NCBI GenBank assembly: GCA_951406725.2
Contig: OX597835.1
Span: forward strand, 13,764,001-13,828,000
DNA: 64,000 bases
Direction of reading: 5' to 3'
Origin: Octopus vulgaris
Lineage: Eukaryota
Position 1 is the stretch's first letter, and each line of letters opens with the position of its first letter. This document shows positions 18,036-37,776 of this stretch, piece by piece. The notes below the pieces were generated by a model. That model searched no databases, was not told where the DNA came from, and saw only the letters and a list, made by a program, of their open reading frames with translations. Made by a program: the position numbers and the translations under genes.

Positions 18036-18442
18036 TCTACTCTTTTACTTGTTTCAGACATTTGACTGCGGCCATGCTGGAGCACTGCCTTTAGTCGAGC
18101 AAATCGACCCCAGGACTTATTCTTTGTAAGCCCAGTATTTATTCTATCGGTCTCTTTTGCCGAACCGCTAAGTGACGGGGACGTAAAGACACACCAGCAT
18201 CAGTTGTCAAGCAATGCTAGGGGGACAAACACAGACACACAAACACATGCATATATATATATATATATATACATATATACGACAGGCTTCTTTCAGTTTC
18301 CGTCTACCAAATCCACTCACAAGGCACTGGTCGGCCCGGGGCTATAGCAGAAGACACTTGCCCAAGATGCCACGCAGTGGGATTGAACCCAGAACCATGT
18401 GGTTGGTTAGCAAGCTACTTACTACACAGCCACTCTTGCGCC
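18036..18442 (-). mobile_element. SINE family A
   Basis: Full-length copy. Confidence 0.85.
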
Positions 18443-18869
18443 TGTGTAAGCATTCAACTTGTTTGGGTATGCTTACATTAAAAAAACAATTTTAGAATGA
18501 CTTTTTCCTGTCAAACCGCTAAAAATAACTGACCAACAAAAAAAAAAAAAAAACAAAGATTCAACCAAATCAAAAAATAAACCATCCCACTTCAAAGATG
18601 AACCATCCCATTTCAAGAACTGAAACTCCAAGAACTGAAACCAAAGAACCCCTCACAGATCAGGATTATCAAAATGTTAAAAGCTGTTACGTTTACTAAG
18701 ATAAACTGCATTATTTTTATTACAGTAGTTTTTAATTTGTTTCATTAGTTTTTTGGAGGCTTTTTTTTTGCGGGGGGGGGGGGGGGCCACAACAAATGCA
18801 GAGAAACAGACATAACAGTAGTATTAAAAAAAACATAAATAAATAAATACAGACACATAGAGGGATTTT

Positions 18870-19228
18870 GTGGCCGATGCCAGTGCTGCCTCAACTGGCT
18901 TCCGTGTCGGTGGCACGTAAAAAGCACCATCCGAACCGTGGCCGATGCCAGTGCTGCCTCGACTGGCTTCCGTGCTGGTGGCACGTAAAATGCACCAATC
19001 TGACCGTGGCCGTTGCCAGCCTCACCTGGCACCTGTGCAGGTGGCACGTAAAAGCACCCACTACACTCACGGAGTGGTTGGCGTTAGGAAGGGCATCCAG
19101 CTGTAGAAACATTGCCAGATCAGACTGGAGCCTGGTGCAGCCTTCTGGCTTCCCAGATCCCCAGTCGAACCGTCCAACCCATGCCAGCATGGAAAGCGGA
19201 CACTAAACGATGATGATGATGATGATGA
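18870..19228 (+). mobile_element. (GAT)n-tailed non-autonomous retroelement family C with ~60-bp internal subunits
   Basis: GTGCCGGTGGCACGTAAAAAGCACC subunits, then GGTTGGCGTTAGGAAGGGCATCCAGC...CATGGAAAGCGGAC-TAAAC(GAT)n; other copies at ~1280-1610, 34122-34410, 39075-39262, 40735-41105, 43222-43405, 44533-45203, 46778-47045, 51270-51590, 56806-57012. Confidence 0.8.
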
Positions 19229-19826: not shown

Positions 19827-20054
19827 TAAAAATAATCCTTTCTACTATAGGTACAAGGCCTAAAATTTGGGGGATAGGGGCCAGTCGATTACATCGACCC
19901 TAGTACTTGACTGGTACTTATTTCATCGACCCCAAAAGGATGAAAGGCAACATCAACCTCAGTGGAATTTGAACTCAGAACGTAACGAAAGATTAAATAC
20001 AGCCAAGCATTTCACCAAGAATGCTAAGCATTTTGTCCAGCATACTAACGATTC

Positions 20055-20272
20055 TTATTTCTTTATTGCCCAGAAGGGGCTAAACACGGAGGGGACAAAC
20101 AAGGACAGGCAAGGGGATTAAGTCGATTACATCGACCCCAGTGTGTAACCGGTACTTAATTTATCAACTCTGAAAGGATGAAAGGCAAAGTCGACCTCGG
20201 CGGAATTTGAACTCAGAACATAGCACTAAGCATTTCACCAAGTGTGCTAACAATTCTGCCAGCTCACCGCCT
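20055..20272 (-). mobile_element. SINE family B monomer
   Basis: Reverse-complement copy. Confidence 0.8.
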
Positions 20273-21435
20273 TAACAAACTCAGAACATAGCAGCACCAG
20301 CTTGCCTCATTAAAGAAATAAAATATAAAAACTTATTAGCAATGTATTTTTCAAGGGTATTGTCAACTGAAGAGTGTTGCCTTTTCTTATCTTTTCTTAA
20401 ACAAAAAAAAAAAAGGGTCTTTTATAACTGAGACACTCTTCTAAACCCCAATCACTAGGTATGAATAGAATCATGAAATGTCTGCTTTCCATGCTGGCAT
20501 GGGTTGGATGGTTTGACTGAGGACTAGCAACCCAGGAGGCTACACCAGGCTCCAAGGTTTCTACAGCTTGATGCCCTTCTTAACGCCAACCACTCTGAGA
20601 GTGTAGTGGGTGCTTTTTACATGTCACTGGTATGGGGGCCAATCAGGCGACACTGGCATCAACCACACTCAAATGGTGCATTTTACGTGTATAAATTAGA
20701 GGCTTTCAGCTGAGTTCAACAGTTTTATGGCAATTATTAAATGCTCTAAGGTGGTGAACTGGCAGAGTTGTTAGAATGTTAGATATTTTGTCTTGCAGTA
20801 TTTGTTTTGATTCTCTACAATCTGAGTTCAAATCATGCCATGGTCAAATTTTCCCTTTTATCTTTTCTGAAATGGTACAAAAATAAGTAACAGCCCAGGA
20901 ATAGGGGTGAACTGAAGGATTGACAGAAAGGAATTGTTAGAGCATTGAACAGGATGTCTGGTGCCTTGTGGTGTCTGTTCTAGATTTGTATGATTTTTTT
21001 GTTTAAATTCTGTTCCTGTCAGCTCAAAAATGGTGTCATTACTGTCAGGAATTGTGATTGACAGATTGAATCAACAATTTGGTAAACCAATGTAAAAATA
21101 GTTTCCTTGGTTTGATCAGGGGAGGAGAGGGGGATGAGAGTGGAAAAGGAGGGTAGGAGGGAGAAGAGAGAGGAAGGAGGAGGAGAAAAAGGCAAGGAGG
21201 ATGGAGAGCAGCAGCAGATTCCACTGCCACCACCTCCAGCGCCTTTATTAAATGTCCTGGCATACACTCAAACACAAAACACATCTCGAAAATAGAATTT
21301 CTGGTAATAACTCTCGGTGTTTATCTGCCCAAATTACTATCTTTAGTTATGAATGCATGTAGCTAAGTGGTGAGTGTATGCAGCTCATGATCGTAAAGTT
21401 GTGAGTTCAATTCCTGGTGGCATGTTCTTTCCTTC

Positions 21436-23279: not shown

Positions 23280-23319
23280 TATACATATATATATATATAT
23301 ATAGATGAGAAATACTTAC

Positions 23320-23798
23320 CACTAGGCAAGGCAAACGTAGCATACTCAGTGAAAAAATAACATTGGAACTCTCCTTTCCGTTGTCTTAGATATGTTGAGA
23401 TTTCTCTACGAATATCTGCTGCTAGATCGGGGCTTGAGTGTGATGGAAGACGTTTTACTACTTTCGATGCCATGTCAGTAGCTGTCAGTAAGACCGCAAG
23501 CATGTCTTCCCGTTGAAACCGAATTGCTAAATGCACCAAAGTATAGCCTACCTCAAATGCACTCGGTCTGTTCAAAAACGTGACCTCATCTTGATTTAAC
23601 TGCCGAGCAGGGTTACCACCAGAAGCTAGATATGTTTCAACAGTGTCCGAGTCCCCGTCAACAACACCTATACATGCATTTAACCAGGACCAGTCTTTGT
23701 CTCGTAAGCGTGTGCGGAGAAGACGTAAACGCCTTTCTTCACTCCATTTGTCAGGTTCGTTGGAAGCATAAGGTAATGCTGCAGTTGCCCCCACCTGT

Positions 23799-23836
<38 letters not shown>

Positions 23837-24625
23837 TTGCTGCTGTTGTTGTTGTTGTTGTTGTTGCTGCAGTTGCTGCTCATGAGAGTCACTTTTATGT
23901 ATATAAATGGACGAATGGTTTGCTTTTATTTGTAATGAATCTGACATTTCTACAGGTGAACAACTGTTCAGATTACACGAAGAACTCGGCTCTGAAGTAG
24001 TTTTGCTAGCTCCACAGATAACACACTTCAGAGACTTGGGCCAATTATCAAAAGTACAAGATTTACAGGTCCATTTACCAAGAGAGCGTGTAAGGGCTGA
24101 AGATACTGACCGATTTTTGTCATTGTAAAAATCTTTAGTAGTATCAGGAGAATTTGGTGAGTTACGGTTTGCCATGTTGTTACCAGACGATGGTTCCATA
24201 TTTATCGATAGGACTTGACCTGGGCTTTTAGAGGGGTTAGTCTTATTGACGTATGTAGTGGATGGTGACTGTTTCCGTAGCATTAAACACTGTGTACACT
24301 TTATGGCGCGGGGCCAATTCAGGTAGGTACAAAGATGACACGCCCACTTCTCAGTCCAAGGAGCCACGATGGAAGGGCTTTTTTTGCAAGTGATGTCATT
24401 TTGTGTTGGGCTTGTGGGGATTAGATTTGTGGAGCTACTGTTGCTTGAAGCCGAATTCATCATTGATGCCATCTTATAAATGTCTTGCTCGTTATTTAAA
24501 GCATCATCTGTAATGAGCTGCGGTGTTCGAGATGCACAGCATAAAGTGCACTTTTTAGCAGCAGGGAAGTTTTCGTATGTACAGTAGTCACAAGCCCATT
24601 TCTCTAACTCGTTCATTTTCCTCAT
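23320..24625 (-). CDS. ZRANB1: TRABID/ZRANB1 OTU deubiquitinase, first coding exon (exon 24639-23320; ATG at 24625 or 24616): 3 NZF zinc fingers, polyQ, ankyrin UBD, start of OTU region; gene continues beyond the window start
   Basis: Translation has KWACDYCTYENFPAAKKCTLC, KWACHLCTYLNWPRAIKCTQC and KWTCKSCTFDNWPKSLKCVIC (three RanBP2/NZF fingers), then WLNACIGVVDGD...GGNPARQL...LNRPSAFEVGYTLVHLAIRFQREDMLAVLL...LRQRKGEFQCYF...TFALP, matching TRABID. Acceptor tcttttctttttgtattttag|T at 24640/24639; donor AGTG|gtaagt at 23320/23319 (phase 1). Confidence 0.95.
23795..23869 (-). repeat. Coding CAG/CAA repeat, 25 consecutive Gln, between NZF3 and AnkUBD
   Basis: 75 nt of mixed ctg/ttg on the + strand, in frame; preceded by EQQL. 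Confidence 0.95.
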
Positions 24626-24765
24626 GTGGTCAAAATGTACTAAAATACAAAAAGAAAAGAGACACATGAGAACAAGCTGGCAATTACTGATAGAAGCAAA
24701 TCTGTGAGAAATAACAACAAGGCTGTCTAATAAGAAAAATGAAGTGTGCATGTAGGTATGATATA

Positions 24766-25403: not shown

Positions 25404-25875
25404 ATCCCTCGTCATATCACGGTTTATTATTTAAGCTTACATCAATTCCTCCGTAGTGTTGTTTTGCATTTATAATAAAATAAATATATACAAATTATAA
25501 AAATAATTTTAAAAAATTTACAATACAGTACTGTTTCTACTTTGTAGATTTTCACCCAATGCAGTGGGGTTTGGAACATAACAACCACGACAGTTGGTGT
25601 GTTGATGTCCTCATAACTTAGCAGTTTGGCTAAAAGAGACCAACAGAATAAGTACTAGGCTTACAAATAGTAAGTCTCAGGGTCGATTTGTTCAACTAAA
25701 ACATTTCAAGGTGGTGCTCCAGCAGAGCCACAGTCAAAATGACTGAAACAAGTAAAAAAGTAAAAGGGAAAAAATAATAACAAACACAAGGAAAGAGATG
25801 GGCCCAGGATGGTGTACTAAGAATGGGCACGAACCCTTTAGCATTCAGGTTAGTCTGTCGGATATAACACTTATA

Positions 25876-26112
25876 AGGCAGCGAGCTGGCAGAATCGTTA
25901 GCACGCCAGGCGAAATGCTTAGCGGTATTTCGTCTGCTGCTACGTTCTGAGTTCAAATTCCGCCGAGGTTGACTTTGCCTTTCATCCTTTCGGGGTCGAT
26001 TAAATAAGTACCAGTTACGCACTGGGATCAGTATAATCGACTTAATCCATTTGTCTGTCCTTGTTTGTCCTCTCTGTGTTTAGCCCCTTGTGGGTAGCAG
26101 TAAAGAAATAGG
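25876..26112 (+). mobile_element. SINE family B monomer
   Basis: Head AGGCAGCGAGCTGGCAGAATCG through tail AAAGAAATAG. Confidence 0.85.
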
Positions 26113-26305
26113 ATATAATACTTATTTATTCACAGTGCTTTGAATTAATCACACATCGCTTCATGATTTCACAGGTGTAATTGTTTATTTTTAGAAGGAC
26201 ATTGTAGGGTAGGTGTGAGTGGCTGGATCTGGCTCATTTGAACATAAAACAGGTAAAACATTTGGTGTGGACACTCATAACATTGGTAGTAATAAAAAAA
26301 AAAAG

Positions 26306-26712
26306 AGGCGCAGGAGTGGCTGTGTGGTAAGTAGCTTGCTAACCAACCACATGGTTCCGGATTCAGTCCCACTGCGTGGCATTTGGGCAAGTGTCTTCTG
26401 CTATAGCCCCGGGCTGACCAAAGCCTTGTGAGTGGATTTGGTAGACGGAAACTGAAAGAAGCCTGTCGTATGTATGTATATACATATAAGTGTGTGTGTA
26501 TATGTTTGTGTGTCTGTGTTTGTCCCCCCAGCATCGCTTGACAACCGATGCTGGTGTGTTTACATCCCCGTCACTTAGCGGTTCGGCAAAAGAGACCGAT
26601 AGAATAAGTACTGGGTTTACAAAGAATAAGTCCCGGGGTCGATTTGCTCGACTAAAGGCGGTGCTCCAGCATGGCCGCAGTCAAATGACTGAAAGAAGTA
26701 AAAGAGTAAAAA
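26306..26712 (+). mobile_element. SINE family A
   Basis: Full-length copy, head at 26306. Confidence 0.85.
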
Positions 26713-27529: not shown

Positions 27530-28025
27530 CATCATCATCATCATCAACATCATCATCATTGTTTAATGTCCGCTTTCCATGCTTGCATGGGTTGGACGAT
27601 TTGACTGAGGTCTGGCGAACCAGATGGCTGCACCAGGCTCCAATCTGATCTGGCAGAGTTTCTACAGCTTGATGCTGTTCCTAATGTCAACCACTCCGAG
27701 AGTGTAGTGGGTGCTTTTACGTGCCACCGGCAAGAGGGCCAGTCAGGCGGTACTGGCAACAGCCATGCTCAAATGTTGCTTTTTATGTGCCACCTGCATA
27801 GGAGCCAGTCCAATGGCACTGGCAACAACCTCGCTTGAATGTTTTTTCCACATGCCACCAGCACAAGTGCCAGTAAGGCGACGTAGGTAATGATCATACT
27901 CGAATGGTGCTTTTTACGTGCCACCGGCACGGAAGCCAGTTTGTTGCTCTGGCAACGATCACACTTGGATGGTACTCTTAGCGCTCCAGTAGCATGGATG
28001 CCAGTCATCGAATTTGATTTCGATT
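27530..28025 (-). mobile_element. Family C retroelement, long copy, nested in a family B SINE
   Basis: Collinear with 21436-21890. Confidence 0.8.
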
Positions 28026-28637: not shown

Positions 28638-29060
28638 TACTCTTTTTCTCTTTTTACTTGTTTCAGTCATTTGACTGCGGCCATGCTGGAGCACTGCCTT
28701 TAGTCGAGCAACTCGACCCCGGGACTTATTCTTTGTAAGCCCAGTACTTATTCTATCGGTTTCCTTTTGCCGAACCGCTAAGTGACGGGGACGTAAACAC
28801 ACCAGCATCGGTTGTCAAGCAATGCTAGGGGGAACAAACACAGACACACAAACATATTCACACACACTTATATATATATATATATATATATATATACGAC
28901 AGGCTTCTTTTCAGTTTCCGTCTACCAAATCCACTCACAAGGCATTGGTCGGCCCGGGGCTATAGCAGAAGACACTTGCCCAAGATGCCACGCGGTGGGA
29001 CTGAACCCGGAACCATGTGGTTGGTTAGCAAGCTACTTACCAAACAGCTACTCCTACGCC
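28638..29060 (-). mobile_element. SINE family A
   Basis: Full-length copy. Confidence 0.85.
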
Positions 29061-31410
29061 TATAATGCGTTTTTTTTTTTTTTTCTCTCTTTCACTTCTA
29101 AACGAAGACATAAAATCCAGTCTGAAGACAGGAAAACATGAGTGACTTTATAGAAGGTTATTTCTTTTATAGGTTGTTGGTAAATGGAGCAGAAGAAAGA
29201 TATGAAAAAATTATGGAACGAAGGTGAAAGATGAGAAGTGAATAATAGTTAATCAAGGGCGAAGGTAATTAATTGCTTGTGTTTGAGTGTTTATAATCTG
29301 TGCAAGTGCAATGAGAAGGTCATAAGAACAGAAAAACGGGGGATAGCTCACTGATGACATCATCAAATGCTAAAAGGGGGGAAAAAAAAAAAAAAAAGCC
29401 CATAAGAAAACAGAAAAATATTAATTAGCCTTGAAAATATTAATTAGTGAAGCAGTCGTTAAATTGTTTATTATGTTGGGTCACTGTTAAAACTGAGCGG
29501 AAAGTGTTCCAATTGAAGTATTATGAATTCTAGCAGTGGAATAAGGTCAGAGATTTGGAGAGAAAGAAGAGAGGAAGGAAGAAAGGAAAGAAAAGAATGA
29601 AAGAGAGAAAAAAGAAAGGAAGGAAGGAAGGGAATGATGGAGGAAGATAATCAATAAAATGGTATTTTATTTTATTGTCCCCTGAAGAACAAAATAAAAG
29701 CATTTTTTTTTCTCTATAAAAAGTGTATTTGCTTCAGGATTTATTTTTAGGTGTAAGATAGGGCAAACATGGCTGTAAGGTTAAGAAGCTTGCTTCCCAA
29801 CCACGTGGTCTTGGGTTCAGTCCCACTGTGCAGCGCTTTGGACAAGTGTCTTCTACTATATAACCCTGGGCTGACCAAAGCCTTGTGAGCGGACTTGGTA
29901 GATGGAAACTGAAAGAAGCCTGTTGGTTGTATGTGTGTGCCTGTATATATGAGTGTGTGTGTGTGTGTGGTTTGTGTGTATTCTTGTTTTGACATCACAT
30001 GATGGTCGTAAACAAGCATCACCATCATAGAAGCAGTGTTGTTCATTTCAAGTCTTCTGTGAAATGCATGTCAGGTCATGGGGAAATATTATCTTGCTTA
30101 CAAACAAGTGAGGGTTGGCGACAGAAAGGGTATCCAGTCGCAGAAAATCTGCCCCAACAAATTCCATCTGACCCATGCAAGCACAGATATTAAGTGATAA
30201 TGATGATGATGATGATGATGATCAAACTGGCTCCTGGTATTTGACTGATACATTATTTTAATGACCCTGGAAAGATGAAAGGATAAAAATTAACCTTGGC
30301 CATCTTAGAACTCAGAATACAAAGGGCTGCTGCTCTGCTCATTCTGCCAAACTATCGGACCATTCTAAGTATTACTAATAAACAATTTTGATCTAATTAT
30401 TCATTGTAGTTAGTAAATAACATTTGTGATTGTGCATATCTAGAACACAATCATCTGATGTCCTTCCCTTTTCTCAAGACAGTCGTGTAATTTCAGGAAT
30501 ATTTAGCTGCTGTTTCTAGACAGTTGAGAAACAACAAATAAAAAAAGATGCCTTCAGTGGAACTGAACCTGAGACCGTGCAGTTGAGAAACAAACTTCTT
30601 AACCATACATCCACACTGTTTTAATGCTTATTGTTTCTTGCTTGCATGAGTCAGACCAAATTCATTGAGGCAGATTTTCTACGTCTGGATGCTCTTCCCA
30701 TTGTCAACCCTCTACTCTTCCAAACCAATGTGCTTTCACAGGAGACTGCTAGCAAACAGTACCATGATGGTGACCACCATCATCATCATCATTTAACATC
30801 CATTGTCCATGCATGCATGGGTAGGACAGTTGGCAGGAGCTGGCCAGGCAGAAAACCTACCCAAGGCTACTGTGTCTGTTTCGCCGGGATTTTACGGCTG
30901 GATGCCCTTCATAGCACCAACTACTCTACAGAGTGGACACGGTGCTTTTTATGTAGCACTAGCACAGGCAAGGTTAGTTTAGGCCTGACTTTTACAGCTG
31001 GATGCCCTTCCAAACGCCAACCACATTACAGTGTGGACTGGATGCTGTTAACATGGCACCAGCACTGGCAGGGTAACTAAGTAACTCACAAGACAAGGAA
31101 TTATGGAGAGGGGCAGGGATATTTGAGGAGGGGATCTTGTGTCAGAGGATGAAAGGTTAGAGTGTGACAAGGAGACAGAGAGGAGATATTTGTTTACAAT
31201 TAGTATAAAATATCAAGACAAGGACACATACACCTAACAGGCTTCTTTTCAGTTTCCATCAACCAAATTCCGTCATTGGTTAGCCAGAGACTACAGTTAC
31301 AGTAGAAAACACTTGGCCAAGGTGCTGCATAGTGAAATTGAACCTAAAACCTCACAGTCTCAAAGCAAACTTCTTAAACACACACCAATGCCTGCAACTT
31401 ATATATATAT

Positions 31411-31640
31411 ATTTCTTTACTACCCACAAGGGGCTAAACGCAGAGGGGACAAACGAGGACAGACAAACGGATTAAGTCGATTACATCGACCCCAGTACGT
31501 AACTGGTACTTAATTTATCGACCCCGAAAGGATGAAAGGCAAAGTCGACCTCGGCGGAATTTGAACCCAGAATGTAACGGCAGACGAAATACGGCTGCGC
31601 ATTTCGTCCGGCGTGCTAACGTTTCTGCCAGCTCGCCGCC
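31411..31640 (-). mobile_element. SINE family B monomer
   Basis: Full-length reverse-complement copy. Confidence 0.85.
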
Positions 31641-32179
31641 TTGTAACTTATATGTGTGTGTGTGTGTGTGTGTGTCTTTCAGTGAGTAAAGCGAGATCTT
31701 TCTGTGTCCTGGTTGCAGTTACATATTAAACAAAAAAGCATAATATGGCCGCCCTATCTTTAACAGACATTCATTAACTAAATGTGTACACACTTTGTTG
31801 TTACTTCTACATATAGCATTTGAGAAAGCGACATTAGAATAAAAACCAACAACGAGAGTGAGACAGATATCAAATTATGAATGAACTGTCAATGAACTCG
31901 TTCTCTCTCTCTCTCTCTCTCTCAATTAAGGTTTTTATGATATCTGCAACTATTCAATTCTCTGGTTATTCTACTCCGAGATTCTGGTTTTAGGTCGACT
32001 AGTCGTGTTGATGTAAATACAAATATGATACCAGAGTTAGGCTATCCAATGTCGGTGTAGTTGCCGTTATTATTGTAGTTGGCGATGCTCTCAAAGAATA
32101 AGATAAACAGGAAGGCAGCCGGAATGGATTTCTGAGATTGGTAGAAGAACTTTAAAGCGTTAAAATAACAGTCATTTTT

Positions 32180-36320: not shown

Positions 36321-36668
36321 AGAGAACAACAAGAAGAATTCGATATACTCACCTCACTTAATAGAAGACACAAACAGCACCAATGTCTAAGAAGCCCAAT
36401 TTGATCAGGCAACTTCTATAACACTTTTTATTTCTAAAATCACTTCCACAGCATCTTTCCTACTTTCTCCTGTTTTACATTGTGTAGCAGTTACCGACAC
36501 TTCCCAACAGCCATCTGAAAGAAAAAAGAGAAAAAAAGACCCTTTAAGGCAGTGCTCCAGCATGGCTGCAGTCAAATGACTGAAACATGTAAAAGAAAAA
36601 AAAAGAATAATGATATATATTTGTTGTGCAAGATTTTTTATGTGAAGTCGTGTGTTGAAACAGATATT

Positions 36669-36768
36669 NNNNNNNNNNNNNNNNNNNNNNNNNNNNNNNN
36701 NNNNNNNNNNNNNNNNNNNNNNNNNNNNNNNNNNNNNNNNNNNNNNNNNNNNNNNNNNNNNNNNNNNN
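36669..36768. other. Assembly gap (100 N)
   Basis: Run of N; the flanks are SINE A tail and head pieces. Confidence 1.

Positions 36769-37185: not shown

Positions 37186-37776
<591 letters not shown>

What the first reader, a model, noticed from the sequence alone, without database searches (positions are those of the whole stretch)
23320..24639. TRABID exon is exactly 1320 nt and becomes a stop-free endless ORF if back-spliced; flanking inverted SINE pairs favour circRNA
Seen: acceptor at 24639 and donor at 23320 give 1320 nt = 440 codons. The exon starts TA-CAT-TTT-GAC-CAC-ATG and ends AGT-G, so the back-splice junction reads G|TA (Val)-H-F-D-H-M in frame with no stop. Inverted repeat pairs straddle the exon: SINE B 25876-26112(+) / 20055-20272(-), SINE A 26306-26712(+) / 18036-18442(-), family C 27530-28025(-) / 18870-19228(+). 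Established: long ATG-bearing exons with long introns and inverted SINEs are typical circRNA sources, and stop-free circles can undergo rolling-circle translation. I recall a circRNA from the ATG exon of mammalian ZRANB1, which needs verifying. Inference: a circle could encode concatemeric NZF-polyQ-AnkUBD without the catalytic OTU, i.e. a multivalent ubiquitin-chain binder. Caveat: length divisible by 3 has a 1-in-3 chance, and could instead mean an upstream coding exon.
Basis: partly seen in the sequence, partly recalled or inferred. Interest (0 to 1): 0.72.

Follow-up and report, generated by a model that had tools for sequence, protein, structure and literature searches.

The report
Ordinary TRABID start-codon exon
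This is the first coding exon of a cephalopod's TRABID gene (an enzyme that removes ubiquitin chains), and it is spliced into normal linear mRNA; it would read as an endless frame if joined into a circle, but no circle has been shown and the frame is likely a coincidence.

Summary
Spliced contigs in 8 of 8 runs laid stop at 24639 and 23320. The exon is 1320 nt, phase 1 at both ends, and stop-free if circularised. The three inverted repeat pairs exist. The linear mRNA joins it to a 162-nt 5'UTR exon (in-frame TGA just before the junction, so no upstream coding exon) and to a downstream exon 45 kb away, giving an intact 762-aa TRABID. The endless frame depends only on a 14-nt leader (chance about 0.24). 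Cuttlefish-cluster proteins imply the same leader. A vertebrate orthologous exon (851 nt, the span of human circZRANB1) and 22 of 23 loci of another invertebrate clade are predicted to be 3n+2. Inverted pairs are denser here than elsewhere in the gene. But none lies within 3 kb on both sides, direct pairs are nearly as strong, and each pair has a closer competitor inside one intron. Back-splicing could not be tested, because contigs drop rare junctions. A low-level non-coding circle is plausible (about 25%). A functional rolling-circle ubiquitin trap is unlikely (about 3%).

The parts
23320..24639 (-). First coding exon of TRABID/ZRANB1, 1320 nt: 14-nt leader plus 1306 nt of CDS; phase 1 at both ends relative to the ATG frame
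24640..24660 (-). Splice acceptor (pyrimidine tract and AG); upstream intron 11,713 nt
24623..24625 (-). Start codon, 6-9 residues ahead of NZF1 as in orthologues
23314..23319 (-). Splice donor GTAAGT; downstream intron about 45 kb, next exon outside the window (L003, G000:C22 about 13742207-13742278)
24539..24598 (-). NZF1; Thr-Tyr and Asn, Thr kept, Phe in place of human Trp18, Ala for Ser20, Leu for Met26
   Evidence: residue roles from PMC4386031
24287..24346 (-). NZF2
24014..24073 (-). NZF3
23795..23869 (-). 25-Q tract (CAG/CAA); at most 3 Q in the 10 cuttlefish-cluster proteins
23477..23734 (-). AnkUBD (PF18418, profile 5-91 of 97); 47 further residues to the exon end match 3ZRH beyond the AnkUBD
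36353..36514 (-). Upstream 5'UTR exon, 162 nt (acceptor predicted from sequence, donor shown by contigs); in-frame TGA at 36356-36354; three out-of-frame upstream ATGs
26306..26708 (+). SINE A copy in the upstream intron (A-box/B-box-like head, box motifs recalled); inverted to 18038-18443, and to the nearer 28643-29082
18038..18443 (-). SINE A copy in the downstream intron
28643..29082 (-). SINE A copy forming a competing inverted pair inside the upstream intron (90.7%, 440 nt, 1.9 kb from 26306-26708)
25874..26113 (.). Repeat B upstream arm; nearest straddling pair, total distance 4,281 nt; better partner inside the same intron at 31410-31646 (88.8%)
20053..20274 (.). Repeat B downstream arm
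27541..27859 (.). Repeat C upstream arm
18909..19228 (.). Repeat C downstream arm; nearer inverted partners in the same intron at 1.3-2.2 kb

Best explanation
This is the start-codon exon of the animal's intact TRABID/ZRANB1 deubiquitinase gene, spliced linearly between a 5'UTR exon and the OTU-domain exons, and its endless frame on circularisation is likely an accident of a 14-nt leader. Shown: both borders and both linear joins; an in-frame stop in the upstream exon; a 762-aa open frame over seven coding exons. Shown by comparison: the phase-1 donor after F-x-L-P-x is old and shared widely among invertebrates, so the coding part is always 3k+1 nt and exon length mod 3 is set by the leader alone. 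Inferred: the product is a K29/K33-type ubiquitin chain editor like human TRABID; the flanking SINEs are ordinary intronic insertions; any circle is trace-level and untranslated.
For: Contigs of 8 of 8 runs laid align from exactly 23320 and to 24641 (two shared letters) and run on 191-287 nt upstream and 319-1251 nt downstream. In the 4 runs whose loose letters were shown, these map to window 36353 and to the L003 exon. Upstream exon has TGA directly before the junction codon. Downstream exons give 762 aa; 3 of 6 internal coding exons are phase 1-1. Chance of 3n and stop-free about 0.24. Of 194 homologues scanned, 44 read x-G after the motif; 42 of these (this window's own ORF among them) then diverge as expected for read-through of the same phase-1 donor, and 2 are full-length scallop proteins. 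Predicted exon 3n+2 in 22 of 23 loci of one invertebrate clade, in L009 (both candidate acceptors) and in vertebrate-type L039 (851 nt). Human circle span 851. No straddling inverted pair within 3 kb; nearest total distance 4,281 nt, matched or beaten by 44% of 544 positions. Octopus circRNAs are low overall, 296 high-confidence (PMC9699675). AUG circRNAs show no sign of translation or ORF conservation (PMC6487579).
Against: The exon fits the AUG-circRNA profile: large, both introns over 6.5 kb, vertebrate ATG exon circularises. It has the top inverted-pair score within 6 kb of 9 tiles and of the 8 exons tested, with a borderline orientation excess at 11.7 kb (P=0.03 count, 0.07 bits). The 14-nt open leader appears conserved in cuttlefish-cluster proteins. 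Acceptors in other animals are predicted, not RNA-checked, and 11 of the 23 clade loci have a second proximal YAG that would give an open 3n exon. Contig data cannot exclude a circle.
Confidence: 0.7

Rival explanations
1. The exon reproducibly forms a non-coding AUG circRNA, a cephalopod analogue of circZRANB1, driven mainly by its long introns and helped by distal SINE pairs; the circle is not translated to any useful extent.
For: Introns 11.7 kb and about 45 kb; AUG exons with long introns are enriched among abundant circles in mammals and flies, with distal inverted elements; human and mouse ZRANB1 circles exist; highest local inverted-repeat score in the gene.
Against: Only 296 high-confidence circRNAs in octopus, attributed by the authors to ADAR. 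Each named pair has an arm with a closer partner in its own intron. The vertebrate circle is a different, shorter exon.
Confidence: 0.25
2. One reading: the circle is made and translated by rolling circle into a tandem (NZF1-3, polyQ, AnkUBD) polymer without the catalytic OTU, trapping ubiquitin chains.
For: Frame open across the junction, apparently also in cuttlefish and relatives. Rolling-circle translation of endogenous circle sequences is reported from reporters and mass spectra (10.1101/473207). OTU-less or inactive human TRABID traps ubiquitinated species in puncta.
Against: Frame is expected by chance about one time in four and is predicted not to hold outside coleoids. Some rolling-circle products were rapidly degraded by the proteasome. 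A broad survey found no translation of AUG circRNAs. Each repeat would carry 47 residues cut from the region after the AnkUBD, probably poorly folded (inference). Needs three unshown steps: circle, cap-independent initiation, stable product.
Confidence: 0.04
3. The phase 1-1 symmetry reflects an upstream coding exon that adds an N-terminal extension.
For: 4 of 10 cuttlefish-cluster proteins from transcript assemblies carry in-frame extensions of 13 or 27 residues before the shared start (P0002, P0078, P0079, P0080).
Against: In this genome the upstream exon has three in-frame stops, the last directly before the junction, and its ATGs are out of frame; 4 of 4 runs with visible letters use this exon.
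Confidence: 0.01

Closest known systems
TRABID/ZRANB1 (A20-like OTU deubiquitinase; PDB 3ZRH, 5AF6, 4S1Z)
   Same: 3xNZF, AnkUBD, OTU order; E=2e-45 to 3ZRH; 87% to a cluster holding Sepia pharaonis ZRANB1 over the AnkUBD region.
   Different: All NZFs and the whole AnkUBD sit in one 1320-nt exon; 25-Q tract; NZF1 has Phe at human Trp18.
Human circZRANB1 (hsa_circ_0000268, chr10:126631025-126631876; PMC5945597 passage, PMC13759317 passages)
   Same: ATG-bearing exon of the same gene.
   Different: 851 nt (3n+2), ends at the start of the AnkUBD by the matching exon in L039; not an endless frame; shown experimentally, whereas the circle here is not.
AUG circRNAs (PMC6487579; passages and section 9 read)
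   Same: Start-codon exon, long flanking introns, only distal inverted repeats.
   Different: No back-splice evidence here. Infinite ORFs are predicted in 8% of human and mouse AUG circRNAs, so this one would be in a known minority.
Rolling-circle-translated circRNAs such as circPSAP, circPFAS, circABHD12 (10.1101/473207; passages)
   Same: Stop-free 3n circle from coding sequence.
   Different: Those had junction mass spectra and reporter tests; here neither circle nor peptide is shown.

Membership tests
TRABID/ZRANB1 | Three N-terminal NZF domains | tested here: met
TRABID/ZRANB1 | AnkUBD directly before the OTU domain | tested here: met
TRABID/ZRANB1 | Intact OTU domain in frame downstream | tested here: met
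   Six downstream exons, 85-90% to P0002, open to a 762-aa protein with Cys and His motifs (catalytic roles recalled)
TRABID/ZRANB1 | K29/K33 chain specificity | not testable with these tools
   Most NZF1 contact residues kept, Trp18 is Phe
AUG circRNA | Exon holds the start codon and has an upstream exon | tested here: met
AUG circRNA | Flanking introns over 6.5 kb | tested here: met
   11,713 nt and about 45 kb; threshold
AUG circRNA | Back-splice junction reads, RNase R resistance | tested here: inconclusive
   Only assembled contigs were available, which drop rare junctions
Inverted-repeat-dependent circRNA | Inverted element within about 2.3 kb total distance | tested here: not met
   Nearest 4,281 nt; cut-off from human Alu data
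Inverted-repeat-dependent circRNA | Cross-exon pairing favoured over pairing inside one intron | tested here: inconclusive
   Summed cross-exon score exceeds competitors at 4, 6, 8 and 12 kb but not 5 kb; each named pair has a closer competitor
Rolling-circle-translated circRNA | Length 3n and no stop in frame | tested here: met
Rolling-circle-translated circRNA | Frame kept in orthologues | tested here: inconclusive
   Inferred kept in cuttlefish cluster; predicted lost in 22 of 23 clade loci, L009 and L039
Rolling-circle-translated circRNA | Junction footprints or peptide | not testable with these tools
   No ribosome profiling or proteomics tool

The most novel reading that the evidence does not exclude
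Coleoid cephalopods make a conserved in-frame circTRABID from this exon and translate it round and round into a polymer of NZF1-3 plus AnkUBD that traps K29/K33 ubiquitin chains, a built-in antagonist of the gene's own enzyme; octopuses add a polyQ spacer to each repeat.
Probability: 0.03. Interest if true: 0.8.

Novelty: already known. Interest (0 to 1): 0.2.

Why it matters
As it stands it does not: it is a normal exon of a conserved gene. If a circle is found it would show that back-splicing of the ZRANB1 start-codon exon occurs in both vertebrates and cephalopods despite different exon ends and strong ADAR activity. If the circle were also translated, it would be a rare natural, functional rolling-circle protein with an obvious biochemical job, which bears on the open dispute over whether endogenous circRNAs are translated.

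Tried and rejected
1) Back-splice joint in public runs: none listed in 8 of 8 runs laid, but all were Logan contigs, library type not on record, which show presence and not absence; this is not counted as evidence. No holder was on record as RNA; the contigs are spliced. 2) Permuted or concatemeric ORFs in homologues: 0 of 194 AnkUBD-bearing proteins had an NZF after the exon-end motif (21 lacked the motif) and 0 of 111 among 140 new representatives. Weak test: no octopus protein was returned by these searches. 3) Circle-derived pseudogene: the genome search with the exon gave itself, polyQ-type repeats and one 115-bp NZF3 fragment that touches neither exon end. 4) The octopus list of 296 circRNAs: not in the supplement PDF or table archive; the data archive could not be opened past its first file, so it may bear on the claim. 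5) Literature: no paper on a cephalopod or invertebrate TRABID circle or on a translated circZRANB1 in searches (listings only, except papers named as read). 6) Rfam 17000-45000: nothing at gathering score, only simple-repeat noise. 7) m6A-type DRACH motifs in the exon 34 versus 31 expected. 8) One search compared positions with thresholds carried over; redone consistently. 9) In one search, 30 of 35 loci were scored; L034, L038, L041, L042, L043 were dropped (no intron at the site, partial or distant); L010, L011, L017, L024 use another donor and L040 has no clear acceptor, so they are not in the 23. 10) No earlier scan finding near this place.

Full report
Setting. The window lies at G000:C22:13764001-13828000 in a 2.8-Gb animal genome. 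The closest named protein cluster holds Sepia pharaonis ZRANB1 (87% over the AnkUBD region). I infer a coleoid cephalopod, probably an octopus.

Observation. The minus strand shows a pyrimidine tract and AG at 24641-24640, the exon from 24639, ATG at 24625 and a GTAAGT donor after 23320: 1320 nt. The frame encodes three NZF domains, 25 Q and a full AnkUBD, matching 3ZRH at E=2e-45. Circularised in silico, the ATG frame has no stop. The three inverted pairs are present at 80.8%, 92.6% and 80.3% identity.

Splicing shown. I laid 8 of the 19 listed runs (6 coded studies). In all 8 the contigs start exactly at 23320 and end at 24641 (two letters shared with the upstream exon), then continue as other sequence. 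In the 4 runs whose loose letters were shown, they map to a donor at 36353 and to an exon about 45 kb downstream. The upstream exon is 162 nt, has a TGA in frame directly before the junction codon, and only out-of-frame ATGs. Six downstream exons complete a 762-aa protein with an intact OTU region. Contigs cannot show or exclude a rare back-splice, so that question stays open.

Is the endless frame special? The coding part of the exon ends at a phase-1 donor after F-x-L-P-x. This donor is old: genomic ORFs of many other animals break off at the same point and 24 metagenome host loci show it in DNA. Exon length mod 3 is therefore set by the leader alone. A 14-nt leader in the right phase and free of stops has a chance of about 0.24, and 3 of this gene's 6 internal coding exons are phase 1-1. 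But the UTR exon upstream also lines up without gaps between the two by eye, so this looks like low indel rate and one shared inheritance. Against: the shared YAG in 22 of 23 loci of one invertebrate clade gives 3n+2, as do both candidates in L009 and the 37-nt leader in vertebrate-type L039. These acceptors are predictions, the 23 loci are close relatives, and 11 of them have a second proximal YAG that would give an open 3n exon. L039's exon is 851 nt, equal to the span of human hsa_circ_0000268 (0-based start convention recalled), and it ends at the start of the AnkUBD. The known mammalian circle is thus neither the same exon nor an endless frame.

Do the SINEs favour a circle? The window holds 328 inverted and 338 direct matches, and 15 copies of the SINE A motif, 6 on plus and 9 on minus. 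Against: flanks are simply repeat-rich (51% and 64% against 39%), direct pairs reach 1803 bits, and shuffling orientations gives P=0.21 and 0.39 at 6 kb, 0.03 and 0.07 at 11.7 kb, over three distances tried. No pair lies within 3 kb on both sides. The nearest spans 4,281 nt, which 44% of positions match or beat, beyond the 2.3-kb cut-off used for Alu-dependent circles (PMC6487579). The best arm, 26306-26708, has an equally good partner 1.9 kb away in its own intron, against 7.9 kb across the exon; B and C also have closer competitors. That pairing inside one intron opposes circularisation is recalled, not from a call.

Priors from papers. Human circZRANB1 is real (PMC5945597, PMC5798954, PMC13759317, PMC13060158; passages seen). 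AUG exons with long introns are enriched among circles, but their ORFs are not conserved, no translation was found, and 8% have infinite ORFs (PMC6487579; passages and section 9). Another study reports rolling-circle products, some rapidly degraded (10.1101/473207; passages). In octopus, circRNAs are low, with 296 high-confidence cases (PMC9699675; passages of text and supplement PDF); I could not see the list. Human TRABID without OTU activity traps ubiquitin chains through NZF1 and AnkUBD (PMC4386031, PMC7948964; passages), so a concatemer would have a plausible activity if it existed.

Verdict. An ordinary start-codon exon of an intact TRABID gene, linear splicing shown, frame most likely accidental (0.70). 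A reproducible non-coding circle is a fair possibility (0.25) and cheap to test on raw total-RNA reads. Translation of the circle into a concatemer is about 0.04, and a conserved, functional chain trap about 0.03. Interest 0.2.

Noticed in passing
L002:1501-1615 (G000:C2:86377863-86377977): A 115-bp, 85% identical, frameshifted copy of the NZF3 part of this exon sits on another contig; it touches neither exon end, so it says nothing on back-splicing.
   Followed up: partly
L012-L037 subset, L009, L039: Where the predicted exon is 3n+2, the would-be circle frame ends on a TGA overlapping the start codon (ATGA) in 18 of 22 clade loci, L009 and L039, giving exactly one turn. Probably a by-product of ATG followed by A.
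   Followed up: partly
L039 leader; P0023, P0024: The 37-nt vertebrate leader reads as the same 12 residues in L039 and in bird-like proteins with N-terminal extensions, hinting that it is coding in a longer vertebrate isoform.
   Followed up: no
window 23795-23869: 25-Q tract between NZF3 and AnkUBD, absent from the cuttlefish cluster (at most 3 Q); contigs are masked there, so length variation was not seen.
   Followed up: partly
window 36353-36514: The 5'UTR exon carries three out-of-frame upstream ATGs with short uORFs (7, 1 and 4 codons), possible translational control; at least one further exon lies upstream and was not located.
   Followed up: no
window 24572-24574: NZF1 has Phe where human Trp18 contacts the proximal ubiquitin; the cuttlefish protein has it too, so chain specificity may differ.
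   Followed up: no
L044:1355-1582 (G000:C22 about 16082854): An exon of another A20-like OTU gene (46% to the TRABID OTU) 2.3 Mb away on the same contig.
   Followed up: no
window 36669-36768 and 37190-37770: A 100-N assembly gap and a (TA)n tract of about 580 nt lie just upstream of the UTR exon.
   Followed up: no
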